Virus record (IMG/VR): IMGVR_UViG_3300006931_000005
Location: 9,725 to 73,724 of that record
DNA from: a virus
Length of the DNA: 64,000 nt
Direction: 5' to 3' (one strand)
The position numbers were made by a program, and so were the translations under genes. This document shows, in pieces, positions 5,653 to 61,564 of the stretch; within the stretch, counting starts at the first letter, position 1; every line of letters starts with the position of its first letter. The notes beneath the pieces were generated by a model. That model worked only from the letters and a program-made list of their open reading frames with translations. It was not told where the DNA came from and made no database searches.

Positions 5653-6740
5653 TTCTCTACGCATCATCTCCTGATGGGGTCGCCCAGCAGCAGAATTACT
5701 ACGACCAGCTCCGAATGAACGCGGAGCAGAACAATGCCGCACGCTTCGACGCGGCACAGGCCCGTGCGCTTCAGGCCACCCTTCAGCAACGTGAATCCGA
5801 CCGGCGCTCGCAGGATGCCGCCGATACCTCCGCAGAGCAAGCTGACCAGTTCAACCAGCGTCTTGCCTTCGAGGGTCAGCAAGGTGATCTGAACCGCGCT
5901 TCACACGAGAAGGACGTGAACACGCAGTACAGCTCGACGCACGCCGACCGGCAGGATGCGATCAATCAGCGCGATTTCGAGCAGGCTCAAAAGCTGGCCA
6001 TGGCTGGTCAGATTCCGCAGACCGAGGAGAAGGTTGCCTCGCTGTATCCGAATTTCAGCAAAGACCAGATCAAAGTTTTGGCGGCGGCAAGCTCGCAGCA
6101 CGCCTTCGACCGTTTCGGCACCGCTCTCGATATGTCGATCCGCGCCGGTAATCCGTTGCCGCTTGAAGCCGTCTCCAAGATCGTCAACCCGGACTCTCCG
6201 ATGTACAAGGACGCGATTGATTTTCGCACCGAAAAACTCGCGCCGTTCGTCCAGCAGTTCAAGACCGGTGAGGACAAGGCCCGCAAGGGAAATTTAGCAG
6301 CAAAGATTCAGGCTGATACCGAGGCTGCACCGCTTCCGACTTCATTGAGCGCCAATACCCCTATGTGGGCTGGCGGTTATGCAAATCCTATCAACTGGGG
6401 TATTCGGCTCGGCGAGCATTTGTTCCCGGATATTACCCCAGATAATACAATCCAGCCTCGTGGCGACTGGCAGACGCGGGCTCCGTCGATTGTTTCATCG
6501 CTCCGCGCTGGGAATGATCCGGCTGTAACCACAGACGTTACAACTGGAAAATTTGTGAACACGATGCTCAATCCGAACGGTGGCCCGCAAGCACCGGAGC
6601 CGATTGTTCCGCCGATCCAGCCCGGCCCGGTCGCTCCTGTCCCCGGCGTTCCGACGGTCACAACTCAAGCCCAATTTGATGCGCTGCCCAGCGGTGCCAT
6701 TTACATTGGAAAAAACGGTAAGCAATTTCGCAAGCCATGA
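5649..6740 (+). CDS. putative internal virion (ejection) protein
   Basis: Q/A-rich coiled N-terminus; C-terminal PTVTTQAQFDALPSGAIYIGKNGKQFRKP of the kind seen in podophage ejection proteins. Confidence 0.65.
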   Translation: MILYASSPDGVAQQQNYYDQLRMNAEQNNAARFDAAQARALQATLQQRESDRRSQDAADTSAEQADQFNQRLAFEGQQGDLNRASHEKDVNTQYSSTHADRQDAINQRDFEQAQKLAMAGQIPQTEEKVASLYPNFSKDQIKVLAAASSQHAFDRFGTALDMSIRAGNPLPLEAVSKIVNPDSPMYKDAIDFRTEKLAPFVQQFKTGEDKARKGNLAAKIQADTEAAPLPTSLSANTPMWAGGYANPINWGIRLGEHLFPDITPDNTIQPRGDWQTRAPSIVSSLRAGNDPAVTTDVTTGKFVNTMLNPNGGPQAPEPIVPPIQPGPVAPVPGVPTVTTQAQFDALPSGAIYIGKNGKQFRKP

Positions 6741-9700
6741 AGCAAGATGATTTTGGCGGCATCGCATTGGACGATCCACAATCATCTGACGAATTTGGTG
6801 GTGTACCGTTGGCACCTTCCACATCGACAGATGAATTCGGTGGGGCACCTTTAACTTCACCGGCTCCGATTCAAGTCCCGGCGCAGAGCCAGCCGATGCC
6901 GGAGCCGATTCCATTCAAAAACCCGGACATCATCGCGCCCGCGCCGGAAGCGCCGTCGATCCCCGGCGTCTTGGCCCGCAGCGCGGCCAGAAATGTTCTG
7001 CCGACCGCAGGATTTATTGCGGCTGCGCCAGTCGGTCGCTTGGCCGGTGCTGCTGCTGGTGCCCGCACTGGCGCTCTGCTTGGAGCTCTGGTGCCCGGTC
7101 TTGGTGAAACTGGCGTCAGTGAGGGCGTTGGCGCAGTGATTGGTGGCCTTATCGGTATGTTCGCCACTGGAACAGCGGCGGCAACTGCAACGAAAGCACT
7201 TCAGACTGGCGCTGCCGATTACGTCGCACCAGATTCTTTCCTTGGAACGAAGTCGGAGCAGGCGGATATGGCGGCACATCCCATCGCCAGTGAGCTGGGA
7301 AGCCTTGCCGTCATCGGAAAACCGAATCCGTTCAACATCATCCGGGCTGCACGCACCATCGGGTCGGATACCGGACGCGCAGCACTCGCCGATCTGTTGA
7401 AAACTGGCGCGACCAAGGGCGGCTATCAGGAATGGGCCAAGACTTACTCGCCAGAGGTGCAAAAATCTGCTGTCAACGTGCTCAACGTCGCGCAGGCGGG
7501 CGGCATCAACGCGGCTTTCAATGTGTACGACCAGATCAAATCTGGAAATTACAGCGCGGGCGACCTTTTACGGTCGGCGGCGGAGGGCGCTTTGTTCAAT
7601 GAGCCTTGGATTCACGCAAAAAATCCTGCGACCGACTCGTTTGATTCCGCACTGACACCCGAACAGGCCACGGAAGCGAATAAAAACCTCCGGGCGTTGA
7701 GCCCGTACCCGGAAACCGGGACGCCGACGAACATCTCGAAGGGGATCGTGGCCGTTCCGGTCGGTCAGCGGACGCATATCATCCAAGTGAACGGTCAGGA
7801 CGCCGCCGTTTTGAAGCACGTCGATGGCGCGGACTTTCAGAAGGCGCAGGACGATGCTGGCGCGTCCGGGTGGGACGGATATTTTCTTAAAAAAGACCCG
7901 GAGAGCGGCAATCCGACGATCTACATCAACATGGATCACCTGAACCGTCAGGATTCCCTGTTCACGCACGAGTCAACGCATTTGCTGGAGGCCATGGGGC
8001 TCATCAACCAGCAGCAGATGGACGCCGTGAACACGACCTACGGCCAGATCAAGGTCAAGGACGCCGACGGAAATGAATTGCCCATCGCTCAAGAGGTGGC
8101 GAACCGTTACGCGAAATTTAATCAGGACAACAGCCGACCGGATCAGACGCCGGAAGATTTTCAGCGCGAACTTTTCGCCAACATCCTGCAACACTGGCAT
8201 GAAACCGGGACTGCGCCGAAAGACACCTTCATCAAGCGGGCGATTGATTTCATTTCCGGCATTGCCGGGCTCGATAAATCGGGCGAACAGCACGCGAGAG
8301 ACTATATCGCTGGCCGTTTTGAGAAGGCACCTGAAGAAGCCGGAGCTCCGGCGACCGCCGATCTTGTTCCGGCTGGCGCAGCGAGCGCGGCTCCTTTGCC
8401 AAATTTGGCATTTGACAAAAATCCTGTTCCGTCGCAGGCTACGGGTGATGTCAGACAAGCCGAAGAACGAGCAGGAGCCGGAGTACCACCGCCCGCCGAA
8501 GGGGTGGAAGCCGGGAGGCCCGCCGTTGGTGCTCCGCCCGCCCGCCCCGGTGCCGAGCCCAACGCCGCCGTCCAGCAAGCCGCCAATGCCTACAACGAAG
8601 CCGTAGGTCTCGGCCCAACGCAGCCGCATTACGTCCCGGTGGACGAGGCCCGTGCCCGCCAGATCGCCGCCGAGTACGAGAAGCTTCCGAAAACCGACCA
8701 GTCTCCGCAGACCCTTGCGTCCTACGAACAGCTTGGCAAGGAAATCCAGCAGCAGTGGGATTATGCCCGGAACAAAATGGGCATCACGTTCGAGGCTTGG
8801 ACGAAAGAGGGCCAGCCCTACGCGAATTCCCGCGAGATGGTGAAGGATGTCCGGGACAATCATCACCTTTATTTTTTCACAGGCGGCGATGAGCATCCGC
8901 TGCTCAACGTCAAGGACGCTGACGGGCTCACGCTCAATGACAAGCTCCGGGCTGTCCATGACCTGTTCGGTCATGCGGCGGAAGATTTTCAATTCGGCGC
9001 ACGCGGCGAGGAAAATGCGTGGATCAAGCACAGCCAGATGTTCACTCCCCTCGCGCAGAAGGCGCTGACGACCGAGACCCGTGGCCAAAACTCGTGGGTG
9101 AATTACGGGCCGCACAATTACGAGGCGACCGGTGCCCGGAGAAACATCAAGCCGCAGGATCGTCCGTTTGCGGATCAAAAAGTTGCCCTGCTCCCTGACT
9201 GGGTGCATGATTGGAAAGGCCCGTTAAATGAAAACCAAAAAGCACAGTTCAGCGTCCCGAAACAAGCGCCCGATTTCACCGACCTCCAGTGGTGGAAGCG
9301 TGACAAATCCGAACCGGATGCAGGCGCTCGTGAATCTGGCGCTCCAAGAACTATCGCAGGTAATCCCCGCGAGCTCGCCCCCGGCGAACGCGACGGCAAA
9401 GTAACACTCACGCACTGGTCGAACTTCGACCTTCACGGAAAGGCGATTGATCCGAATTTTTACGGCTCCGGTTATGCCGGTGAGGAAAAAGGCCGTCGGG
9501 TTTTCAAAAAGTCTTGGCTGAACCGCAGCTATTTTGGAATGAAGGGCTACGTCAAAGAAGGTGGCCTTGGCCGATTCAAGCACAGCGTCACGGTGGACGT
9601 GAACAAGCTCTACGACCTGAAGAATGATCCCGACCGGCTGGGTGAAAAAGTCGGCGCGATCTCCGACCGGCTGTATCCGAAGGGTGGCACGCAAGCCGAT

Positions 9701-12700
9701 CTCACCGTTTACGAAAATCTCATCAAGAAGGCCGGGTACATCGGATACTACAACACCGATTATGCGGTGGCCGCGCTGTTCGACAAGGTGCGCGTCCCGG
9801 CCCGCGTTTCAATCATTCACTCGGTTGAAAATTTCAAGCCCGCCACACACAAGGACATGACGCCGGAGGAGCTGCTGACATCGGCGCAACAGGTGCGGAT
9901 CAAGGCTCCTTCCGGGACTACCGCATTGCGTGTGATCGACTCGAACGGCAACACCGTGATTCATAACCTGTCGAAATTCTCGACCAGAAATCCGCTGTTC
10001 AACAAGGATGTGGTGCGTGTCAGCCCGGTATCGGTGAAAACCAGTGGCGTGTACAAGAACCATCCGATCCCAGTGAAAGGGCCAGTGCGCGTCGAGCCGA
10101 CGGCGATGTTTTCGGTGCCGAAGAAAAAAGAATTTTTAGATGCGGGCGAGGAATCTCGCAATCCAAGACCTAATGCTACGACATTGCCGACTCCACCGAC
10201 AGGGGGGCTTAAAGAAATCGGAGATCGTACCGCATCTAAGTTTAATTACGATAAAAACGTGCTGGATGAAAATGGCGCGATGAAGCGATTTTATCACGGA
10301 ACAGGAAAATCGGATCAATTAGTAAAATCTGGAGGATTTAGCTATGAAAAAGCCAGCGACGAATCACTGTATGGAAAAGGATTATATTTCACTGAAAATC
10401 CTGAAATTGCTGGAGGAACAGTCGTAGGCGCTGATTTGGTAAAACGCGGATATGCTGGCAGCTCTGGTGCTGTCATTCCGGTCAACATCAATGCCAAAAA
10501 TCTTTTTGATGATTCGGTCGGTATTCCGAAGCAGCAAGCCGAAAAGCTGGTGCTAAAATATATTGATAAAAACGGTGAAAACGATGTCCAGCTTAACGGC
10601 AAGTATGGATCATTCGCCGCCGCAAAACCGGTAATTAAAGCGCGTGAATCAATAGATAATTCGTTTCGAGAATTGATTGATGATTTGGCGCAAGAAAAAT
10701 CAATTCGGGATTTAGTTAAAAAATATGTTCCAGCCGGAAGTTTATCTGGAAGCCAGACCATAAAAGATCGTTTGAGCTGGGCTTTTGGTCGGCGCAGTAT
10801 CCATAACTCAATCGCGTCTGAACAGGATAAGTCGGCTGGTGGAATACGGGCTGAATCAACAGGTGATATTAAGCAAAAAATTTACCAACTCGATGATCTT
10901 GAAAAGCAAAGCAATGCTCTTGATCGTCAAATTTCAGAGGCGATGGGGCAGGTTGGTAAGTATTCTGACTTTGTAAAAAAAGTAATTGAAAATGTTGATG
11001 GCCCTGTGAAATACGGCGATCTTACAGATATTTTTTTACAGGACAAAAACGAGGTCAATAATTTTTTAAGAAATTCTGGATACGATGGGATTACTCATAT
11101 TGGAGGAACTATCACAGGTAGCGATCCACATCGCGTTGTAATTGTTTTCGATCCGAAGCAGATTCGCTTTGCGATTGGCGCAGATCAGCCTTTCTTTTCA
11201 GTTCCAAAAAATTCATCTCAAGAGCTGAAAAAATTTCCGCGCACAGCCATCGACATTCTGATGGACGAATCGGTAATCAATCCGGTGCGTCCGAAGCAGG
11301 TTGCCGAATTCGATCTCATGGGCGATGACGAGGCCGCAGGATCGACCAGCTTCTCCCGCGTGTTCGCGGTTGCCGACCACCTTTCCCGCCGATCCGCGCA
11401 GCTTGGCGGTGGAGCCCTGCACGAGCTCAACGACACAAACGCCGAGACGCTGGCAAACACTGTGGCGAACGAGGCGGAGTACGCGATCAACCGCGATCCG
11501 AAGGCGATTGGCTGGTACGACCGCGAAATGAAGGCGGCGATGGGCCAGATTTTTAACCGGCACCCGGAGCTGAAGAAAGATCGCGGCCTGCAATCCGTTT
11601 TCAAATCCATTCTGGCGATCACCAACAACGGCCAGAATGTTTTTGCGAATTTCGCGCAGGCGGACAAGCTTTACACGGATTGGCGCACGGCGGGCAAGGT
11701 GCCGGACGAGGAGAACTGGGGCGGCAAGAGTAAGGGCGCGATCAACGACGGCCTGAAGATGCTCAACCTGCTCATCGAGAAGCTGGGCACCGCGAATCTG
11801 GAAAAGTTTTTGGCCAAGGAATTCAAGGTTGGCGATCTCAAGAGGGCTGGATTCGACATCAGTTCTGAAAACACCGAGCACATGGCGCACGGCTCGCTGA
11901 TCTACGGCCCGAAGGTCGGCGGCGGATTCTATCAAAACCTGATCGGCAACCTGAATCCGATCACGATGGATATGTGGCTCATGCGGACGATCAACCGTAT
12001 GCGCGGCACGCTCACCGAGCCCAGCCTCACGGCGCTCCCGGATCAGATCGACCGGTTCATCAAGTCGATGAAGAAGCAGCCGGACAGCGAGGCGATTATC
12101 GCGGATGCCAAGCGCGTGAAGCAGCAGATTTTGGACGGCACGCTCGACGTGAACAAGGAGAAGGATGCTCCGGGTGTGATGCTGACCGCCGCCAAGAATT
12201 TGTACGACGATTACCGCAACAGCGGGTTCGTAAAGCGGACGGAGCTCAACCGCAGCTCGAAGCTGATCGCCGAGGAATTTTTCGGCATCAACGAAGCGCC
12301 GACTTCGGCGTCCGAGCGTGATTTCATCCGCAATGTTTTCGTCCGGGCGCAGGAGAAGTTGAAAGCGAAAAAAATCGACATCACGAACGCCGACCTGCAA
12401 GCCGTTCTGTGGTATCTTGAGAAGGATATTTATGGAAAACTTGGAGCAACCGACCGCCGATCCGCGCCCGCCAGCTACTCGGACGCCGCCGCAGCCCTCA
12501 ACCGAAAACAGCTCGGACTTTTCGATGAAGAACAAGGACGATCAGGCGATCTTCGAGGAGCTGAATCCGCTGGCCCGGAGATCAATCGCTTCGGTGAAGC
12601 TGGCAAGCAGCTTACTGGCGCACAGGCGCTCAAGCGGGTCTCCGTCCAAGAAGCGGAGCCTGTACCGCAGTTCTCGGTGACGAAGAAGCTGAAGTTTTAC

Positions 12701-15700
12701 GAAGGCAAACGCTTCGGTGACGTGAAGGACGAGGTGGTGCCGGAAGTTCCGCCGTTTCATCCGCTCGGCGTCGAACAATTCAAGCAGGCCCGCGACAGCA
12801 TCGTGAACCTCGCGCACACGACCGGCGCGATCCAAGCGCGTGGTATGCGGATCAACTTCGCCAACCCTGATCCGGTCACGGCCAAGCGCCTTGGCGTTGA
12901 CCAGAACAGCATGGTGGCCCGCGCCATCCACGCGATCTCAAATTCCGACCGGCGCACGGCGAACGAAAACAAGGTGCTGCTCGCCGACAACATTTTGAAC
13001 ACGGTGAAGCAGGCTGATTTCGTCACCAAGATTCAACGTGATTCAACGGACGGTGATAATGTCGGCCAGTACGGTACGGCATTCATCAAGGCTTACGATA
13101 TTGACGGCAAGAAGGTCTGGCACCTTGTCCAAGTGGACGGCAATGGTGATTTTATCACGCAATTTTCTTGGCCGGATACGGAAGCTGAAAATGGACGGGT
13201 GATGCGGTCGCAGATTGTGCAGGTTGGTCAGCGGGTTGGTGGTTTGCTAGAGTCGAAGGTTAATCCGCAGGCCGAAGCCCCGACGCCTTCTAATTTCGCT
13301 CCGCCAACCGCTGACCAAGGTGAGATTGCCACATCTGGCAAAGAGGCGCAACCTCAATTTTCAGTAGCCAAGGAGGAGAAGCGGGCGCAGGTCGGCGGCA
13401 TCCCTGAAGTCGGTCAGGTGCGCGATACCGAATCCATTTCCGACAACCAAGCGCACATCCGCGAGCGCCTGTTCGACGGCACGCAGCCTGTTTCTGACGA
13501 GAACACATCCGCCGCGTGGCAGGTATTCGACGAGATGACGGGCAACAACCGCTCCCAGATCGCCGGGCAGTTGAAAGACGCCTTTGGCGGATCGCGGCTG
13601 CTCCTTGGCCTATATAAAGGCGAGGTCTGGAAGTACGCCCGCAAGCTGGCGGTCAACGGTGACGATTCGCTGCTGCGGGCGATGTACGATCACAGCGAAC
13701 AGTTTGAGACCCTTGCCGGTGGTGGCGCATCAACCGCTGGCTCCGCGCTCCGGGCCGAGGCCGAGAATGCAAACGATCCGGTCAACCGGGCACTCCAGTC
13801 CGCCTACGAGACCGAGCGCGAAAATGCGGCCCAGTCCGCCTCCGGCATCGACCGCGAGACCTTCACCGGACTGCTCAAGCGCCTGCGTAGCCTGAAGCTG
13901 ACGCCGGACGAGGTTGAGAAGGTGGTCAAGGAGGGCAAGCTGCCGGACGGCAAAACCCTCGAAGAAGCTTTGGACGAGCTTACGCCGGAATCGAAGGAGG
14001 CCATGGCGTTGCTCGACAAGTATCAGCGTTCGCAGACGGAATGGCTGAAGCCGGACGTGAAGAAGTCGATCATCCGCGTGATCGTGGACGCCGCCATCGG
14101 CGAGAACAAGCTGGCGCGTTACGACGAGAAGGATTTTCAGGATCGGTTGTCCACCCGGCTGCAAGAAGCCACGGTGCCGAAGGAAGTCGCCGACCAGCTC
14201 GCGTTCGAGGTGTGGAAAGACAAGGCTGCACGCGAGGCCACCAAGACCGACAAGGCTGTCAAGGCGGATGCCGCGTTCGAGCAGAACCGGGCGCAGGCCA
14301 TTCTCGACAAATTGCAATCTGACCAGACCGAAGTGTTCAGTCAGGCCCGGCGCTCGAAGGTTGCTGACATCGTTAAGGCGTTTTACAAAAACCCTGCGGC
14401 GTCCGAAGAAGTGCGAGCCCAGCAGATCGCGCAGCTCGAAAAAGATTTGGTTAATGAGACCGTGAAACCCGCAACGGCCAAGGAGCTGGCGCGGGAAGCT
14501 GGCCAGCGCAAGCTGGTGCTCGAAGCAAACGACCGGCTGGCGCAGGAGAAGGTCACGGCCAACGAAGCGCAGCAGACCGCTGAACGCGAGCTCGCAAAAT
14601 TCGAGGAGAAAAACTCCGGTGTCGAATGGCTGAAGGAAAAAGGCAAACGCGATCAGGTGCTTCAGGCGATTGCCGATGCGCTGAAGTCGAAGTCGCCGAT
14701 CCTCGATGATCCGACACCGCTGGTGAACGAGACCAAGGCGAAGCTCACTGCGCTCGGCGTAGATGAGGCCACGGCGGGCAAGCTGGCTTTCGAGATCGAG
14801 ACCGTCCGGCGCACGCAGTTCGCCAACAGCCGCGTGAAGGCGATGGAAAATGCCGCCAAATCTAAAAGCCTGCGGTCGCTCATCGAATCTATCCTCGAAA
14901 CCCCGTACCGCGCCCAGTCCGACCCGAAATGGCTGCATGAAACTGCTGTCCGCTGGTTCGAGTCGAACGGTCTCGGCAAGGATCAGGCTGAAGCCGCCGC
15001 CCGGCTGTTCGACAAGGAGTTTAAAGAGGCGTTGGCGCAGGCCAGCACCAAGGTTGCCGAGGCTGAACTGAAGAAAAAAGTATCGCCCCGCACTTACGAT
15101 GATCTGGAGCGGTTGATCCGGGCCGGAATTTTCGACCCGGACAAAAACTGGATCGACCAGCTCGCGGCGAAGAACGGCTGGAAGAAGCCATCGCGTGACC
15201 AGATGCTCAAATTGCAGGAATTGGAGCACAAGCTTTCCGATCCTGAATTGTCACCCGAAGAAGTGCGCGACATCCAAGAGCAGCAGATGCACGTCCTGCG
15301 TCACGTCGGCAAAAAAAGGGGCCAGACCCTCCGGGCGCTCGGCGAATCGTTCACTGCCTCGCTGCTGTCCGGCATCCGCACGCTTACCGTGCAGACCTCG
15401 CCGACGGTCATGGCCCTCCGCGATCTGCCGATCATGGCGCTGTCCGATCCGAAGAACGCGATGAATTTTGCGAAGGCGATGTACAACTCCTTCAAGGCAA
15501 ATGCGGTCGCGGCGTTCAAATTCGCGTGGATGAAGGACGCCTACGGTTTTCACTTGAGCGAGCTGGAGCACGGCTTCAACGAGATGAAGCGCATCTCCGA
15601 GGAGACGGATCAGGTGGTCAACTCAAAGACCTCGACGCCGGTTGCCAAGGCGCTCGCGTACACCAAGAAGCTCTACGCGCTCCAGCGTTTTGTTTTCCGC

Positions 15701-17515
15701 AACCTGAATTCCATCGACCAAGCTTCGATGGCTGTCACCCGCGAATGGAAGCTGGCGTATTATTCCGCTTCTGCGTTCAAAGAAGCCGGGCTGACGAACA
15801 CGGACATTTCGCAGTTGATCGACCACATCGAGATGCTGCGTAAAAACGAATTCGAGAAAGCCATCGACGCCGGGCTGGATGCGAACACGGCCAAGGTGCG
15901 GGCCAACAGCCGGGTCGCGGATTCCGTCTGGGATTTCGTGAATAACAAGACCGGTCGCAGCGATCTTGCGGATCAGGTTATCAAGGCTACCGAGAACGAC
16001 GTGTACTCCACCGTCGGTCGTGTGCCGCACGGCTTGAATTCAACGGATGAAGGCTTCCTGACCCGGTTCTCCGGCTTTAATCATTTCCTGCAATTCGTGT
16101 CCAAGGTTCGCGGCGAAGGCGGGCTCCAGAACATCGGCACCACGGCGCTGATCGGCATGATTAACATTCCATTCCGCACGACCCGTTATTTTTCTGACTT
16201 CTCGCCCTACGGCCTGCTGCGCTACGGTATCTACAAGTACCGGCTGAATCGCGGCAAGGAAAACTTCTGGAAACAGACGTATGGCAACGCGCTTCAGGCT
16301 CGCGCCCGGCTGTACTCCGCGCTCGCGGGCACCGTTGCCATGGCCGCAGCGACCGCATGGGCGCTCAAGAGCAACACGGCGGACGACAAGGCTGGTGACG
16401 AGGACTTCGGCCTGTACATCACCGGCAAGGGGCCGAACAACAAGGTGCTGGCCGATGCGTGGGTCAAGCGTGGATTCAAGCAGTATTCGGCAAACTTTGT
16501 TTTCGGTGGCCACATCGTTGCGATTCCGCTGACCCGTGCGGGCGAAGCCCTGATGATGCCCTTCATCCTGCCCGCCGCGCTCGATGACTATGCGTGGAAA
16601 TCGAAAGAGGCGGAAGCGGGCGGTCATCCGATCAAGACTCCGATTTCATCCGCCACTGCATCACTGATCGGCGAGGCAATGTACATGACCGGCCAGTCAG
16701 GTATCCTCCAGACTTTTGGCCAGCTCCAGCAGGCGACTGAAAACGGCGGCAGCTTGGGCAAGGCGGCGGTCAAGGTCGGTGTGAGCGCGGCATCATCGAC
16801 GGTGTTACCCTTCCGCCAGCTCCTCGCGTCCGTGAGCGAAATGCTTTTCGGAAGCATGGATAATTCAAGCATCAGCTCGCTGATCGCAAACCAGTTTCCA
16901 ATCGTGGGCCTGCCGTTTCAGAATCCGGCTGTCAACCGCTTTGGTGATCCGATGTACGACCGTAGCTGGTACGGTCTGATCGCCCGCACTGGCGTTCCCA
17001 TCGCTTTTCAGATTTCGCGTTCGCCGGAAAATGAGCGGTTGTACACGACGCTCGTGGAAAAAGGAATTTCGCCACCGCCGCTGAATCGCTCCGATCTTGA
17101 ATCGAAGTACGGCGACATGACCGATCAGCAGTTCAAGCAGTTTGCTACCGTTTCAGGTCAGGCGTTGAAGCAGGCAATCACAAAGAATCTTCCCGACCTT
17201 CAGGGCATGAGCTCGGTGGACGCGAAGAACCTGATGTTCAAGCTGGCGATGCAGGCGAACGCTCAAGCGGCCATGGCCATTGGCGTGGCTCCGCAGCCCG
17301 CAGCCGGTCAGACTGCCGCCGCAGGGTCGGCTGGTGCCGCGCCGTCGAAACAGAAAAAGGCGAAGCTTTCCAAGGCGTCTAAATCAGTCCGGTCGCTTTA
17401 CAAGCTGCCGAAGATGAGCCTGTCTCCGGTCGGTAAGAAATCTCACAAATCGACCACGGCCCGGCGCGGTGGATCGCTCTACGGCGTGCAGCCACGCCAC
17501 CTCTACGGCACCTGA
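6737..17515 (+). CDS. giant polyvalent ejected virion protein (3592 aa): HExxH peptidase-like, HDxxGH domain, two ADP-ribosyltransferase-like modules, HhH glycosylase-like, BECR-like nuclease, helical C-terminus
   Basis: THESTH; RAVHDLFGH..F..RGEENAW; LTHWS..RSYFG; FYHGT..YGKGLYFT..GYDGI..VVIVFDPKQIR; GWY..GPKVG..ITMDMW..LQAVLW; modules joined by FSVxK. Confidence 0.85.
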   Translation: MKQDDFGGIALDDPQSSDEFGGVPLAPSTSTDEFGGAPLTSPAPIQVPAQSQPMPEPIPFKNPDIIAPAPEAPSIPGVLARSAARNVLPTAGFIAAAPVGRLAGAAAGARTGALLGALVPGLGETGVSEGVGAVIGGLIGMFATGTAAATATKALQTGAADYVAPDSFLGTKSEQADMAAHPIASELGSLAVIGKPNPFNIIRAARTIGSDTGRAALADLLKTGATKGGYQEWAKTYSPEVQKSAVNVLNVAQAGGINAAFNVYDQIKSGNYSAGDLLRSAAEGALFNEPWIHAKNPATDSFDSALTPEQATEANKNLRALSPYPETGTPTNISKGIVAVPVGQRTHIIQVNGQDAAVLKHVDGADFQKAQDDAGASGWDGYFLKKDPESGNPTIYINMDHLNRQDSLFTHESTHLLEAMGLINQQQMDAVNTTYGQIKVKDADGNELPIAQEVANRYAKFNQDNSRPDQTPEDFQRELFANILQHWHETGTAPKDTFIKRAIDFISGIAGLDKSGEQHARDYIAGRFEKAPEEAGAPATADLVPAGAASAAPLPNLAFDKNPVPSQATGDVRQAEERAGAGVPPPAEGVEAGRPAVGAPPARPGAEPNAAVQQAANAYNEAVGLGPTQPHYVPVDEARARQIAAEYEKLPKTDQSPQTLASYEQLGKEIQQQWDYARNKMGITFEAWTKEGQPYANSREMVKDVRDNHHLYFFTGGDEHPLLNVKDADGLTLNDKLRAVHDLFGHAAEDFQFGARGEENAWIKHSQMFTPLAQKALTTETRGQNSWVNYGPHNYEATGARRNIKPQDRPFADQKVALLPDWVHDWKGPLNENQKAQFSVPKQAPDFTDLQWWKRDKSEPDAGARESGAPRTIAGNPRELAPGERDGKVTLTHWSNFDLHGKAIDPNFYGSGYAGEEKGRRVFKKSWLNRSYFGMKGYVKEGGLGRFKHSVTVDVNKLYDLKNDPDRLGEKVGAISDRLYPKGGTQADLTVYENLIKKAGYIGYYNTDYAVAALFDKVRVPARVSIIHSVENFKPATHKDMTPEELLTSAQQVRIKAPSGTTALRVIDSNGNTVIHNLSKFSTRNPLFNKDVVRVSPVSVKTSGVYKNHPIPVKGPVRVEPTAMFSVPKKKEFLDAGEESRNPRPNATTLPTPPTGGLKEIGDRTASKFNYDKNVLDENGAMKRFYHGTGKSDQLVKSGGFSYEKASDESLYGKGLYFTENPEIAGGTVVGADLVKRGYAGSSGAVIPVNINAKNLFDDSVGIPKQQAEKLVLKYIDKNGENDVQLNGKYGSFAAAKPVIKARESIDNSFRELIDDLAQEKSIRDLVKKYVPAGSLSGSQTIKDRLSWAFGRRSIHNSIASEQDKSAGGIRAESTGDIKQKIYQLDDLEKQSNALDRQISEAMGQVGKYSDFVKKVIENVDGPVKYGDLTDIFLQDKNEVNNFLRNSGYDGITHIGGTITGSDPHRVVIVFDPKQIRFAIGADQPFFSVPKNSSQELKKFPRTAIDILMDESVINPVRPKQVAEFDLMGDDEAAGSTSFSRVFAVADHLSRRSAQLGGGALHELNDTNAETLANTVANEAEYAINRDPKAIGWYDREMKAAMGQIFNRHPELKKDRGLQSVFKSILAITNNGQNVFANFAQADKLYTDWRTAGKVPDEENWGGKSKGAINDGLKMLNLLIEKLGTANLEKFLAKEFKVGDLKRAGFDISSENTEHMAHGSLIYGPKVGGGFYQNLIGNLNPITMDMWLMRTINRMRGTLTEPSLTALPDQIDRFIKSMKKQPDSEAIIADAKRVKQQILDGTLDVNKEKDAPGVMLTAAKNLYDDYRNSGFVKRTELNRSSKLIAEEFFGINEAPTSASERDFIRNVFVRAQEKLKAKKIDITNADLQAVLWYLEKDIYGKLGATDRRSAPASYSDAAAALNRKQLGLFDEEQGRSGDLRGAESAGPEINRFGEAGKQLTGAQALKRVSVQEAEPVPQFSVTKKLKFYEGKRFGDVKDEVVPEVPPFHPLGVEQFKQARDSIVNLAHTTGAIQARGMRINFANPDPVTAKRLGVDQNSMVARAIHAISNSDRRTANENKVLLADNILNTVKQADFVTKIQRDSTDGDNVGQYGTAFIKAYDIDGKKVWHLVQVDGNGDFITQFSWPDTEAENGRVMRSQIVQVGQRVGGLLESKVNPQAEAPTPSNFAPPTADQGEIATSGKEAQPQFSVAKEEKRAQVGGIPEVGQVRDTESISDNQAHIRERLFDGTQPVSDENTSAAWQVFDEMTGNNRSQIAGQLKDAFGGSRLLLGLYKGEVWKYARKLAVNGDDSLLRAMYDHSEQFETLAGGGASTAGSALRAEAENANDPVNRALQSAYETERENAAQSASGIDRETFTGLLKRLRSLKLTPDEVEKVVKEGKLPDGKTLEEALDELTPESKEAMALLDKYQRSQTEWLKPDVKKSIIRVIVDAAIGENKLARYDEKDFQDRLSTRLQEATVPKEVADQLAFEVWKDKAAREATKTDKAVKADAAFEQNRAQAILDKLQSDQTEVFSQARRSKVADIVKAFYKNPAASEEVRAQQIAQLEKDLVNETVKPATAKELAREAGQRKLVLEANDRLAQEKVTANEAQQTAERELAKFEEKNSGVEWLKEKGKRDQVLQAIADALKSKSPILDDPTPLVNETKAKLTALGVDEATAGKLAFEIETVRRTQFANSRVKAMENAAKSKSLRSLIESILETPYRAQSDPKWLHETAVRWFESNGLGKDQAEAAARLFDKEFKEALAQASTKVAEAELKKKVSPRTYDDLERLIRAGIFDPDKNWIDQLAAKNGWKKPSRDQMLKLQELEHKLSDPELSPEEVRDIQEQQMHVLRHVGKKRGQTLRALGESFTASLLSGIRTLTVQTSPTVMALRDLPIMALSDPKNAMNFAKAMYNSFKANAVAAFKFAWMKDAYGFHLSELEHGFNEMKRISEETDQVVNSKTSTPVAKALAYTKKLYALQRFVFRNLNSIDQASMAVTREWKLAYYSASAFKEAGLTNTDISQLIDHIEMLRKNEFEKAIDAGLDANTAKVRANSRVADSVWDFVNNKTGRSDLADQVIKATENDVYSTVGRVPHGLNSTDEGFLTRFSGFNHFLQFVSKVRGEGGLQNIGTTALIGMINIPFRTTRYFSDFSPYGLLRYGIYKYRLNRGKENFWKQTYGNALQARARLYSALAGTVAMAAATAWALKSNTADDKAGDEDFGLYITGKGPNNKVLADAWVKRGFKQYSANFVFGGHIVAIPLTRAGEALMMPFILPAALDDYAWKSKEAEAGGHPIKTPISSATASLIGEAMYMTGQSGILQTFGQLQQATENGGSLGKAAVKVGVSAASSTVLPFRQLLASVSEMLFGSMDNSSISSLIANQFPIVGLPFQNPAVNRFGDPMYDRSWYGLIARTGVPIAFQISRSPENERLYTTLVEKGISPPPLNRSDLESKYGDMTDQQFKQFATVSGQALKQAITKNLPDLQGMSSVDAKNLMFKLAMQANAQAAMAIGVAPQPAAGQTAAAGSAGAAPSKQKKAKLSKASKSVRSLYKLPKMSLSPVGKKSHKSTTARRGGSLYGVQPRHLYGT
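8397..8440 (+). promoter_or_regulatory. internal operator plus promoter inside the giant gene
   Basis: TGCCA-AATT-TGGCA (8397-8410), then TTGACA(8412)-17-CAGGCT(8435); ATG at 8448. Confidence 0.55.
8448..8606 (+). CDS. nested +1-frame micro-protein (52 aa, MSDKPKNEQEPEYHRPPKGWKPG...)
   Basis: Own promoter; G/C third-position bias moves to this frame. Confidence 0.5.
   Translation: MSDKPKNEQEPEYHRPPKGWKPGGPPLVLRPPAPVPSPTPPSSKPPMPTTKP
9228..9404 (+). CDS. nested +1-frame micro-protein (58 aa, ...MQALVNLALQELSQVIP...)
   Basis: Spans first FSVPK linker; G/C third-position bias in this frame over its second half. Confidence 0.42.
   Translation: MKTKKHSSASRNKRPISPTSSGGSVTNPNRMQALVNLALQELSQVIPASSPPANATAK
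12525..12680 (+). CDS. nested +1-frame micro-protein (51 aa, MKNKDDQAIFEELNPLARR...)
   Basis: Giant frame has atypical A/T-ending codons here (GAA CAA GGA CGA TCA) while +1 frame reads AAG AAC AAG GAC GAT CAG GCG ATC TTC GAG GAG CTG. Confidence 0.52.
   Translation: MKNKDDQAIFEELNPLARRSIASVKLASSLLAHRRSSGSPSKKRSLYRSSR
13226..13316 (-). ncRNA. antisense structured RNA embedded in the giant gene
   Basis: Long closing stem GGUCAGCGGUUGGCGG/CCACCAACCCGCUGACC; GGC-UUCG-GCC hairpin on minus strand; 5' G follows a -10 box by 6 nt. Confidence 0.6.
13323..13351 (-). promoter_or_regulatory. antisense promoter with operator
   Basis: TTGCGC-17-CAATCT; TCTTTGCCAGATGTGGCA is 17/18 identical to the tRNA-cluster promoter. 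Confidence 0.6.
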
Positions 17516-17525
17516 AAATTCCCTG

Positions 17526-17553
17526 TTGACTTCTTTGCCAGATTTGGCATTGT
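17526..17553 (+). promoter_or_regulatory. promoter with TGCCA-N4-TGGCA operator
   Basis: TTGACT-16-CATTGT with TG extension; palindrome at 17536-17549. Confidence 0.6.
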
Positions 17554-17559
17554 TACTTC

Positions 17560-17630
17560 GTGGCCCGAATAACGGAGCGTTACCGTAACGGCGAAGTCCT
17601 CTGGATGGAGCGTGCAAGAGCAGAGGCCAC
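17560..17630 (+). ncRNA. unknown structured RNA at predicted transcription start
   Basis: GTGGCC/GGCCAC closing stem; CGTTA/TAACG hairpin; alternative CCTCTG/CAGAGG pairing. Confidence 0.4.
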
Positions 17631-17633
17631 GAC

Positions 17634-17707
17634 GCGGAAGTAGCTCAATGGTAGAGCCGCCGTTTTCCAAACGGCACACGAGAGTTCGATTCTCTCTTTC
17701 CGCTCCA
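17634..17707 (+). tRNA. tRNA-Gly(TCC)
   Basis: GCGGAAG/TTTCCGC acceptor, GCTC/GAGC D arm, GCCGT-TTTCCAA-ACGGC, GAGAG-TTCGATT-CTCTC, U73 and encoded CCA. Confidence 0.96.
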
Positions 17708-28445: not shown

Positions 28446-28503
28446 TTGCAAGTATCGCCCGATTGAATTACAAATCAATAGGAAACGCCAAATATGGCAA
28501 TAT
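28446..28503. promoter_or_regulatory. divergent promoter region (terL / head operon) with operator
   Basis: CGCCA-AATA-TGGCA at 28486-28499 running into TGG-CAATAT; minus-strand TTGATT-16-GATACT. Confidence 0.5.
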
Positions 28504-34596: not shown

Positions 34597-34619
34597 TTTG
34601 GTCATGGTCTGGTGTCAAG

Positions 34620-34656
34620 CGAGCGGTGGCCAAAAGCCGCCGCTCGTTTTTTGTTT
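34620..34656 (+). terminator. intrinsic terminator
   Basis: CGAGCGGTGGC-CAAAA-GCCGCCGCTCG followed by TTTTTT. Confidence 0.85.
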
Positions 34657-34682
34657 GATAAACGACGGGCAGGCATTAGGAT
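34655..34682 (+). promoter_or_regulatory. promoter, leaderless mRNA
   Basis: TTGATA-16-TAGGAT; ATG 34689 follows 6 nt later. Confidence 0.5.
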
Positions 34683-34688
34683 AAAAAC

Positions 34689-35120
34689 ATGGCTAAGATG
34701 TATTTCAAAAAGTTGAACACGGCCAATGTCATCGCTGACCGGGCCGGATCACCAATCGAGTGGGAATCCCTTGGCGACCGTGACCGCACTGGCGTCCGGG
34801 CGCTGGACACCGAAATCGACGCGAACCTCATCGCCGACCTCGACAAATACGCCGACGACCGGGTGGGCGGCGTCATCAGGATCAGCCCGGAGATTTACGA
34901 GGAGCTTAAAAAAAAAGAGGAGCCACCGAGAAAATCATCGGCGCAATTATCCGGGCTCCGTCTGGCGGCACAGCCAGAGCCGTACAGCCGCCCGTCGGTC
35001 GAGGCTGCTCCGTCTGCGGCGGCGGTCGAGTCCGCTAGTTTTCAAGAGCCTCCCCCTCCGAGTGCGTCAACATTTTTCGCCCGCACGCGCCGGGCTCAAG
35101 CCCAGAAACCAACTGAATGA
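34689..35120 (+). CDS. hypothetical virion-operon protein
   Basis: Follows capsid gene; ATGA overlap with next. Confidence 0.7.
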   Translation: MAKMYFKKLNTANVIADRAGSPIEWESLGDRDRTGVRALDTEIDANLIADLDKYADDRVGGVIRISPEIYEELKKKEEPPRKSSAQLSGLRLAAQPEPYSRPSVEAAPSAAAVESASFQEPPPPSASTFFARTRRAQAQKPTE

Positions 35121-49692: not shown

Positions 49693-50105
49693 TTCTTTGG
49701 CGTGTAATTGCCGTTATTATTTCTGCGTTCCACGGTCAAGCCCGGTGGCCGCTTGCCCATGTCGGCCAAAAAGTTTTTGAACTTCAACCACCGTTTACAA
49801 ACGCGGATGCCGCGACCGCCATAATATCGGTAGATGCGACAGGTTGGAGATAAGCATCGGCTTTTAATTCCAGCCCATATTCGATATTCGGCAGTTTTCG
49901 ATTTGCCATGAGTGGTACTGTCTTTGATGGCTTGCGCGGATCGTAAGCAGCCACAGCTTTTGGTGTGACCGTTTTGTAGGTTGTAGGCAAATGCGACCGC
50001 AGATTTACCGCAGTCGCATTTGCACCGATACTTCTTTTTGCCAGCCTTCGATACGAGCCTTAAAACTACAAGGCTACCGAATCGAAGGCCGATGATTGAT
50101 GTCAT
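49638..50105 (-). mobile_element. HNH homing endonuclease
   Basis: [43 protein letters not shown]. Confidence 0.9.
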
Positions 50106-61176: not shown

Positions 61177-61513
61177 GCTTGGTAGCCCTTCGCAAATAGA
61201 TGGTAAGCTGGTCGTCTGATTGGGATTCAAGCCAGCAGAGATATTGGCCACCGCTTTTGCCGGTGTACAGGCCGTGCAGCTTCAGGATCATTTCGTCGCG
61301 TTTCATGTCAGTAGCCTTTCACTTTGTCAATCCTACGGGCGATTGCGAAAGCCAGCAACAGATTGCCGTCAGCCACGGCAATATCCCGGCGAGCGCGTAA
61401 GTCGTCCAGCGGAATGTTGCGGGGTAGTTTGATTTTTTTGGGTGATTTGGTTTTCATAAAGTCAGTTCAATAGTCGCATCACCGGCTTGGCCGATGATGC
61501 GAGTGCTGGACTG

Positions 61514-61564
61514 TCAGTGCTTGACGGGCGGGAGATGCTTCCCGCCATGCTTGGTTTGCTTCAT
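61514..61564 (-). CDS. 16-aa peptide MKQTKHGGKHLPPVKH
   Basis: Perfect AAGGAGGTG RBS 6 nt upstream. Confidence 0.45.
   Translation of the reverse strand: MKQTKHGGKHLPPVKH

What the first reader, a model, noticed from the sequence alone, without database searches (positions are those of the whole stretch)
13226..13372. Promoter-driven antisense structured RNA hidden behind the nuclease module of the giant ejected protein (candidate RNA antitoxin)
Seen: just after the BECR-like module (AFIKAY..WHLVQV..FITQF), the minus strand has TTGCGC-17-CAATCT. Its TCTTTGCCAGATGTGGCA stretch is 17/18 identical to the tRNA-cluster promoter. Six nt downstream a 91-nt RNA begins, closed by GGUCAGCGGUUGGCGG/CCACCAACCCGCUGACC. 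It has a C(UUCG)G tetraloop in the minus orientation and crossing AAGG/CCUU and GUCG/CGAC pairings (possible pseudoknot). The promoter ends at the FSVAK linker, so nuclease, RNA and promoter could move as one cassette. Known: type III toxin-antitoxin systems (ToxIN) use pseudoknotted RNAs to inhibit RNases. Inference: this RNA neutralises the nuclease domain while the protein is made and packaged.
Basis: partly seen in the sequence, partly recalled or inferred. Interest (0 to 1): 0.9.

Follow-up and report, generated by a model that had tools for sequence, protein, structure and literature searches.

The report
Conserved hairpin inside giant phage gene
A 95-base hairpin and a promoter-like sequence lie inside the coding sequence of a giant injected phage protein and are kept in the only known relative, but nothing shows that they make an RNA that disarms the neighbouring nuclease-like domain.

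Summary
The sequence features are real. A 95-nt imperfect hairpin (13224-13318) lies in frame in the disordered linker after a PBECR-like module of a 3592-aa polyvalent phage protein. It folds better than shuffles on both strands (z -4.3 and -3.6). In the only relative with DNA available (G001), all 8 substitutions fit the fold, and four of them form two compensatory pairs (P about 0.002-0.005).

New here: the adjacent "promoter" is part of a roughly 118-nt inverted copy (13267-13384, minus strand) of the conserved region just after the giant gene's stop codon (17492-17609). The two match at 22/40, 17/18 and 26/60 positions in one fixed register.

The module, hairpin and promoter-like piece travel together between FSVxK junctions.

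Not supported: a ToxI-like RNA antitoxin. There are no tandem repeats, no ToxN-type toxin, no terminator and a sterically impossible pseudoknot, and a homologous module has a linker too short for the hairpin.

The strand is unresolved and no expression data exist.

Best guess (about 0.3): a weak antisense transcription unit acting on the giant mRNA. Close rivals are a sense-mRNA hairpin and a DNA-level quasi-palindrome.

Moderate interest, resting on two genomes.

The parts
6737..17515 (+). Giant ORF (3592 aa), a polyvalent virion or ejection protein with modules separated by FSVxK linkers
   Evidence: ORF list and translation. ART-PolyVal hit at aa 1177-1271, just under the cut-off. phrog_3170 hit. 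Module gain and loss relative to G001 falls exactly at the FSVxK motifs.
12668..13372 (+). PBECR-like cassette: QFSVTK, then a domain of about 175 aa, the hairpin linker, the promoter-like piece and QFSVAK
   Evidence: Kept as a block in G001 with different neighbours on both sides. Domain homologues occur in other giant proteins. ESM Atlas features point to PBECR2/3. The AF2 model has low confidence (pLDDT 47); it shows a helix followed by four strands, with the linker disordered.
13224..13318 (.). 95-nt imperfect rod-like hairpin. An 18-bp basal stem with one bulge (arms 13226-13242 and 13302-13317), inner stems, and an apical GGC-CGAA-GCC at 13270-13279 (cUUCGg on the minus strand). It encodes VGQRVGGLLESKVNPQAEAPTPSNFAPPTADQ.
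   Evidence: Folds. Pair counts on both strands show 98% of cells paired and 2 compensatory pairs. Substitution simulations. Empirical control along the gene: this is the only locus with at least 2 compensatory pairs and at most 1 broken pair. Single copy in G000 and G001 by covariance model.
13323..13351 (-). Promoter-like site: TTGCGC (13351-13346), a 17-nt spacer holding the palindromic 18-mer (13344-13327), TGg, then CAATCT (13328-13323). The predicted start near 13316 lies at the base of the hairpin.
   Evidence: Read directly. G001 keeps TTGCCC, a 17-nt spacer, TGt and CAAAGT although all three codons under the -10 differ. The site fails the tool's sigma-70 criteria.
13267..13384 (-). 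A unit: an inverted, in-frame copy of the control region that follows the giant gene
   Evidence: In a fixed ungapped register against 17492-17609: 22/40 upstream (P<0.0003), 17/18 core and 26/60 downstream (P=0.0025), including CGGAGCG at the same offset. 20 chance matches to the 18-mer pattern in other viral contigs give at most 16/40 and 20/60.
17492..17609 (+). B unit: the last codons of the giant ORF, GAAAATT, TTGACT, the 18-mer 17532-17549, TGg-CATTGT and the start of a stem-closed leader before tRNA-Gly
   Evidence: It is an island of conservation between G000 and G001 in otherwise diverged intergenic DNA. The leaders of both phages are closed by a stem that begins near the predicted +1 and ends just before the tRNA (z -1.8, z -3.1).
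17634..17707 (+). tRNA-Gly(TCC), the only tRNA in the window
   Evidence: ARAGORN.
8393..8410 (+). C: a third copy of the palindromic core only (CCTTTGCCAAATTTGGCA), in another linker of the giant ORF
   Evidence: It shows no flank similarity to B. G001 has the TGTCA variant here.

Best explanation
The feature has two parts.
1. A 95-nt hairpin, kept by selection for pairing, is encoded in frame in the disordered linker behind a PBECR-like module.
2. Beside it lies an inverted copy of the promoter/operator-like region that follows the giant gene and precedes the tRNA.

My preferred mechanism is that this copy still works as a weak, probably regulated, leftward promoter. The transcript would start at the base of the hairpin, which would act as a protective 5' stem-loop. 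The RNA would be a cis-encoded countertranscript of the giant mRNA. It would tune the amount or timing of the polyvalent protein, in the manner of lambda OOP or paQ, and would not bind the nuclease domain.

Shown: the hairpin, its maintenance in the one relative, the paralogy, and the cassette behaviour.
Inferred: promoter activity, the transcript and its target.
For: - Hairpin folding and z-scores.
- All 8 substitutions against G001 fit the fold, with two compensatory pairs. P is 0.002-0.005, and no other comparably diverged stretch of the gene does this.
- The region has high synonymous conservation: the 31-codon window on the hairpin is at about the 95th percentile, and the second-highest peak in the gene overlaps its 5' side. 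Its codons are somewhat non-preferred.
- The A unit is paralogous to the B unit over about 118 nt in a fixed register, well above 20 chance matches to the motif.
- B is a conserved intergenic island in front of a tRNA.
- A and B share the same layout in both phages: an A-tract, TTG, the 18-mer, TGn, CAxxxT, then 6-7 nt to a stem-closed RNA.
- The -10-like A and T and the TGn survive in G001 although the three overlapping codons all changed.
- A cUUCGg loop is present on the minus strand in both phages.
Against: - The hexamers are poor (3/6 and 2/6) and fail a standard scan, as does B. B itself is not proven to be a promoter.
- No terminator follows the hairpin on the minus strand, so there is no defined small RNA.
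- The two one-sided stem substitutions stay paired only on the plus strand. Overall, pair counts and energies are equal on both strands, so the strand is unresolved.
- A compact UUCG loop is a poor kissing loop for antisense pairing (my own knowledge).
- Only two genomes carry the element, so the covariation rests on one comparison.
- The promoter-like features could be inherited remnants of the duplication.
Confidence: 0.3

Rival explanations
1. Sense-strand element. The hairpin acts in the giant mRNA itself. It could be an RNase III-type processing or decay site, or a ribosome pause behind the PBECR-like domain. In this reading the promoter-like piece is only a relic of the inverted duplication.
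For: - The plus strand folds at least as well: -43.7 and -44.9 kcal/mol, z -4.3 and -5.5.
- Both one-sided stem changes are wobble-compatible only on the plus strand.
- The plus strand is certainly transcribed as part of the ORF.
- An 18-bp stem with stacked inner helices resembles RNase III substrates (my own knowledge).
- No promoter or terminator needs to be assumed.
Against: - The other linkers of the same gene, although conserved at the nucleotide level, do not fold, so this is not a general linker device.
- Cleavage inside an ORF would destroy the message.
- No slippery site lies upstream and no useful alternative frame exists.
- It does not explain why the stem starts exactly at the position equivalent to the start of the B leader.
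Confidence: 0.25
2. DNA-level quasi-palindrome with no RNA function. An inverted duplication or template-switch event created the palindrome and the B-like copy. Hairpin-templated correction, not selection, produced the paired changes. The conserved linker DNA mainly serves as homology for in-frame module exchange, like PeSLs.
For: - The whole 95 nt is one rod-like quasi-palindrome.
- The A/B copies are an inverted repeat.
- Module breakpoints between the two phages lie at the FSVxK codons next to the A unit.
- Other linkers also show exact-identity islands without structure: 8474-8515 and 9209-9241.
- Template-switch mutagenesis at quasi-palindromes is established (my own knowledge).
Against: - The same internal loops and bulge are kept in both phages and have not been corrected away.
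- All 8 changes are compatible with the fold.
- The breakpoints are at FSVxK and not in the hairpin.
- No recombinase is encoded.
Confidence: 0.22
3. A promoter-driven minus-strand RNA folds into a (pseudoknotted) structure that binds and neutralises the PBECR-like nuclease during synthesis and packaging, as in type III toxin-antitoxin systems.
For: - The hairpin and promoter-like piece co-travel with the nuclease-like module.
- The module resembles PBECR RNases.
- The structure is maintained.
Against: - There is no tandem repeat array and only a single copy.
- Position and strand are wrong for type III loci as described in PMC3401426.
- The toxin family differs.
- The proposed pseudoknot has a 0-nt connecting loop (plus geometry).
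- The module homologue P0006 has a 10-residue linker that cannot hold the hairpin. Other homologues have unrelated linkers.
- An unprocessed polyprotein domain may need no antitoxin (PMC5512222, proposes activation by metallopeptidase processing).
Confidence: 0.05
4. Chance. An ordinary strong local fold in GC-rich coding DNA, whose conservation only reflects a slowly diverging linker.
For: Dozens of 100-nt windows in this genome fold comparably after GC correction. Only one comparison genome exists.
Against: Two compensatory pairs with at most one broken pair (P 0.0007-0.002), and unique among comparably diverged windows of the gene.
Confidence: 0.1

Closest known systems
Intragenic antisense units of lambdoid phages (OOP RNA; paQ inside gene Q). 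Cited from my own knowledge, not checked here.
   Same: A short structured countertranscript would start from a weak promoter inside or against a phage coding region and act on the overlapping mRNA.
   Different: No terminator, no demonstrated transcript, and the host and regulator are unknown. Here the promoter-like DNA is also translated as a protein linker and is a copy of the gene's own downstream control region.
PeSLs, composite promoter/stem-loop cassettes of T4-like phages (PMC2839356, PMC4122927)
   Same: A promoter-like sequence plus stem-loop is repeated at the borders of exchangeable modules. The phage-to-phage differences are module indels at those borders.
   Different: PeSLs are intergenic, direct repeats and many per genome. 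Here there are two extended copies in inverted orientation, one of them in frame inside an ORF, and the breakpoints lie in the FSVxK codons.
Type III toxin-antitoxin RNAs (ToxI, CptI, TenpI; PMC3401426)
   Same: The idea of a structured RNA linked to an RNase-like protein.
   Different: ToxI-type antitoxins are tandem repeats upstream of and on the same strand as a ToxN, CptN or TenpN toxin, and the toxin processes them. None of this is seen here.
Rickettsia palindromic elements (in-frame palindromic inserts in ORFs). From my own knowledge.
   Same: A palindromic stretch of about 100 nt is translated in frame as a surface or linker peptide. A homologous module (P0006) lacks about 30 residues at this spot.
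   Different: RPEs are multicopy mobile families. This element is single-copy in both phages, and no family was found in 185,579 prokaryote genomes or in IMG/VR with the arm pattern.
RNase III processing hairpins of phage mRNAs (T7 R-sites, lambda sib). From my own knowledge.
   Same: A long imperfect hairpin with internal loops in a long phage transcript.
   Different: The known sites are intergenic or 3' of genes. This one is inside an ORF, and cleavage is untested.

Membership tests
Type III toxin-antitoxin (ToxIN/CptIN/TenpIN) | The antitoxin is encoded by short tandem direct repeats | tested here: not met
   TRF finds no array in 12000-14500 other than a 19-nt 10-mer duplication at 13030. 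The covariance model finds one copy per genome.
Type III toxin-antitoxin (ToxIN/CptIN/TenpIN) | The RNA gene lies upstream of the toxin gene on the same strand, separated by a terminator | tested here: not met
   The element lies 3' of the module, inside the same ORF, and is proposed on the opposite strand. No terminator is present.
Type III toxin-antitoxin (ToxIN/CptIN/TenpIN) | The toxin belongs to the ToxN/AbiQ, CptN or TenpN endoribonuclease families | tested here: not met
   No Pfam family matches the module or its 8 aligned homologues. The nearest feature-space clusters are PBECR2/3.
Type III toxin-antitoxin (ToxIN/CptIN/TenpIN) | The RNA binds and inhibits the toxin and is processed by it | not testable with these tools
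   Needs toxicity and rescue assays and binding assays.
Cis-encoded antisense RNA | Own promoter on the strand opposite to the target gene | tested here: inconclusive
   The hexamers are weak and fail the scan. However, the layout is shared with the conserved intergenic B unit and is kept in G001.
Cis-encoded antisense RNA | Defined 3' end (terminator) | tested here: not met
   No hairpin followed by a U-tract after 13224 on the minus strand.
Cis-encoded antisense RNA | Detected transcript | not testable with these tools
   No RNA run was available for this uncultured phage (see Tried and rejected).
Conserved structured RNA (general) | Base pairs maintained by compensatory substitutions across homologues | tested here: met
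   Two compensatory pairs, with 98% of cells paired on either strand. P is 0.002-0.005. This comes from a single two-genome comparison.
PBECR (phage BECR-fold nuclease) domain, for the upstream module | Match to the PBECR1-5 / MuF_C profiles | tested here: inconclusive
   No Pfam hit at E up to 1. ESM Atlas top clusters are PBECR2 at 0.91 with 191 shared features. The AF2 model shows a helix plus 4 strands but has pLDDT 47. Catalytic residues were not assessed.
PeSL-type mobile regulatory cassette | Many intergenic direct copies flanking swapped ORFs | tested here: not met
   Two extended copies in inverted orientation, one of them intragenic, plus one core-only copy.
Invertible DNA segment (Gin/Hin type) | Inverted crossover sites plus a site-specific recombinase | tested here: not met
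   The inverted A/B copies exist, but there is no resolvase or integrase domain in the complete genome. There is no long alternative ORF on the opposite strand, and G000 and G001 are collinear.

The most novel reading that the evidence does not exclude
A portable 'nuclease + guardian RNA' cassette. The PBECR-like RNase module of an injected polyvalent protein carries, inside its own linker codons, an antisense promoter and a structured RNA. That RNA neutralises the nuclease, or silences its mRNA, in the producing cell. This would be a toxin-antitoxin logic embedded in a single ORF and moved as one unit between giant proteins.
Probability: 0.05. Interest if true: 0.85.

Novelty: new variant of a known kind. 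Interest (0 to 1): 0.38.

Why it matters
Polyvalent proteins are thought to evolve by shuffling enzyme modules, but nothing is known about nucleic-acid signals inside their genes. Here a linker is at once three things: protein sequence, a maintained hairpin, and an inverted copy of the gene's own downstream control region. This would be a compact example of regulatory DNA reused as coding DNA, or the reverse. It would also give a concrete handle on how expression of a 10.8-kb, potentially self-toxic gene is controlled and how its cassettes are delimited. The caveat is that everything rests on two uncultured rhizosphere phage genomes and there is no expression evidence.

Tried and rejected
- **More homologues.** Arm-pattern scans of IMG/VR returned only G001. 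The same pattern found nothing in JGI metagenomes.
- **Peptide searches.** Peptide and profile searches of IMG/VR, metagenomes and GTDB genomes returned only G001 or nothing.
- **INPHARED phages.** No match by DNA or protein.
- **Arm pattern in genomes.** Eight hits in prokaryote genomes have unrelated interiors and are chance.
- **18-mer pattern in IMG/VR.** The 21 matching stretches fit the chance expectation, and apart from G001's own two copies they show no flank similarity.
- **Protein-level relatives.** Their DNA could not be read, including that of P0016, the one protein with a similar linker peptide.
- **Linker peptide in shorter proteins.** A word-based search found nothing.
- **Expression.** No RNA holder was listed; only the source rhizosphere DNA run was found. 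Laying its contigs gave only short unrelated pieces.
- **Rfam.** No match on the hairpin.
- **Pseudoknot.** Pairable on the minus strand in both phages, but rejected on geometry.
- **Long-range A-B pairing in the mRNA.** 17/18 complementary in the window but 15/18 with three true mismatches in G001, so it is not maintained.
- **Frameshift or alternative-frame product.** No slippery site and stops in the other frames.
- **Invertible segment.** No recombinase.
- **Hairpins as a general linker device.** The other conserved linkers do not fold.
- **Phage-specific repeated promoter.** No repeated motif.
- **Fold search of the module.** Not run, because the model is too poor. The profile against PDB sequences gave only noise.
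- **Complex prediction.** Not used; it does not accept an RNA chain.
Full report
**Context.** The window is part of a complete 73.7-kb IMG/VR phage genome with direct terminal repeats, from a rhizosphere metagenome. The finding lies inside a 3592-aa ORF (6737-17515). The ORF's only Pfam signal is ART-PolyVal. Its modules are separated by FSVxK motifs, so it is a polyvalent protein in the sense of Iyer et al. 2017 (PMC5512222). The phage is very novel. PHROGs recognises a terminase, some nucleases and a few structural proteins, and no RNA polymerase. Only one relative exists in IMG/VR, G001 (70.9 kb).

**The observation.**
- TTGCGC-17-CAATCT is on the minus strand.
- The 18-mer matches 17/18 to a site between the giant gene's stop codon and tRNA-Gly.
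- The stem arms are 16 and 17 nt.
- The cUUCGg loop is on the minus strand.

With a TT/AA extension the hairpin spans 13224-13318. It folds at -43.7 kcal/mol on the plus strand and -41.4 on the minus strand, with z -4.3 and -3.6. A genome-wide scan tempers this. After GC correction the locus ranks about 39th-84th of 7363 windows per strand, so stability alone would not single it out.

**Conservation.** G001 keeps the hairpin, with z -5.5 and -4.8. In 95 nt there are 8 differences:
- A-U to G-C in one helix and G-C to A-U in another, both true compensatory pairs;
- G-U to A-U, and a terminal A-U to G-U (as read on the plus strand);
- a change of the bulged base;
- one change in an internal loop.

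On either strand 98% of pair cells are standard pairs, and partner-slid controls show no compensatory pairs. Simulated placement of the same number and type of substitutions gives at least 2 compensatory pairs with P=0.005. A codon-aware version gives P=0.002, or 0.0007 when at most one broken pair is also required. Among all comparably diverged 95-nt stretches of the two giant genes, only this locus combines at least 2 compensatory pairs with at most 1 broken pair.

The region is also a peak of synonymous conservation. Codon identity among identical residues is 0.79-0.88, against 0.51 for the gene. It uses somewhat non-preferred codons. The peptide it encodes is predicted to be disordered. 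I conclude that pairing is probably under selection, with the caveat that this is a single two-genome comparison.

**Strand.** The data do not decide.
- Energies are equal on the two strands.
- The plus strand has three G-U pairs that are A-C mismatches on the minus strand. The minus strand has two of the converse kind.
- The two one-sided stem changes favour the plus strand.
- The cUUCGg loop is on the minus strand.

That alternative helix cannot coexist with AAGG/CCUU as a pseudoknot, because the connecting loop would be 0 nt.

**New result: the 'promoter' is part of a larger inverted copy.** Aligned on the 18-mer without gaps, the minus strand of 13267-13384 (A unit) matches 17492-17609 (B unit) as follows:
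- 22/40 upstream (P<0.0003);
- 17/18 in the core;
- 26/60 downstream (P=0.0025), including CGGAGCG at the same offset.

Twenty chance occurrences of the 18-mer pattern in other viral contigs reach at most 16/40 and 20/60. B is an island of conservation between the two phages, in an intergenic region whose flanks have diverged.

In both phages, both units share the same order: an A-tract, TTG, the palindromic core TTGCCA-N4-TGGCA, TGn, CAxxxT, then 6-7 nt to a structure closed by a stem. The linker after the PBECR-like module is therefore, read backwards, a diverged copy of the gene's own downstream control region. A third copy at 8393 shares only the palindromic core.

Neither A nor B passes a standard sigma-70 scan, and B has not been shown to be a promoter. 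No recombinase is encoded, and there is no alternative ORF, so an invertible segment is unlikely.

**Cassette behaviour.** Relative to the window, G001 lacks 854 residues between MFSVPK and QFSVTK. It also has 177 extra residues after the QFSxAK that follows the A unit.

The domain has distant homologues in other giant proteins and resembles PBECR2/3 in language-model feature space. Pfam and the AF2 model are inconclusive. These homologues carry other linkers. P0006 has only 10 residues where the window has 40, so the hairpin is not an obligatory partner of the domain. One ENA protein (P0016) has a similar linker peptide, but its DNA could not be fetched.

**Interpretation.** The antitoxin reading fails the defining features of type III systems (PMC3401426):
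- no tandem repeats;
- a single copy;
- the wrong position and strand;
- a different toxin family;
- no terminator;
- no Rfam match.

I keep it at about 0.05.

Three readings remain close.
1. A weak antisense transcription unit whose RNA begins with the hairpin and acts on the giant mRNA. I rank this first at about 0.3, because the shared promoter-to-stem layout of A and B in both phages is otherwise a coincidence.
2. A sense-mRNA hairpin, either a processing site or a ribosome pause, at about 0.25.
3. A DNA-level quasi-palindrome left by an inverted duplication and kept by templated correction, with the conserved linker DNA serving module exchange, at about 0.22.

Chance remains at about 0.1.

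**Verdict.** The hairpin is real and probably maintained, and its origin as an inverted copy of the gene's own control region is unusual. Its function and strand are unresolved, and the headline claim of an RNA antitoxin is not supported. Interest is moderate.

Noticed in passing
window 10106, 12668, 13355 (FSVxK codons); L126: The module differences between the two phages fall exactly at FSVxK motifs: 854 aa are absent from G001, and 177 aa are extra in G001. These motifs therefore mark in-frame exchange junctions, and perhaps cleavage sites for the N-terminal HExxH domain.
   Followed up: partly
window 8474-8515: A 42-nt stretch is identical between the two phages, inside an otherwise poorly conserved Pro/Ala-rich linker. 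It is the longest exact run in the two giant genes and has no significant fold on either strand.
   Followed up: partly
window 9209-9241: A 33-nt exact-identity run lies immediately before the QFSVPK linker, and it also has no significant structure. Nucleotide-level conservation seems to be a general property of the linkers.
   Followed up: partly
window 8393-8410 (+), 13327-13344 (-), 17532-17549 (+); weaker copy at 28486-28501 (-): The palindromic core TTGCCA-N4-TGGCA recurs in or next to the giant gene and looks like an operator for a dimeric DNA-binding protein. In G001 the two intragenic copies both read TGTCA in one half-site, while the intergenic copy keeps TGGCA.
   Followed up: partly
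window 17556-17633; L126 12255-12420: The leader between the B unit and tRNA-Gly is not alignable between the phages (78 nt against about 170 nt). In both it is closed by a stem that starts near the predicted +1 and ends 2-3 nt before the tRNA (z -1.8 and -3.1).
   Followed up: partly
window 13337-13351 (-); L002 equivalent: The A unit reads TTGC-N6-TTGC on the minus strand in both phages. This is the spacing of the lambda CII activator box (recalled from memory, not tested). The B unit has an imperfect first repeat and N5 spacing.
   Followed up: no
P0016 (ENA, 135 aa): This short metagenomic protein carries a similar tail and linker peptide (ENGRLLRSSVLQVGQR...HPQAKAP...PAD) without the rest of the module. 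It ends with a second VLQIGQR copy, so the tail-plus-linker may occur in other contexts.
   Followed up: no
window 49991-50090 (-), 34597-34696 (+), 61457-61556 (+): These are the strongest GC-corrected local folds in the genome (z -5.0, -4.3 and -4.1), stronger than the hairpin studied here.
   Followed up: no
window 13370-13378: A perfect Shine-Dalgarno-like AAGGAGGAG lies inside the ORF just after QFSVAK. It is not conserved in G001, and no start codon follows it.
   Followed up: yes
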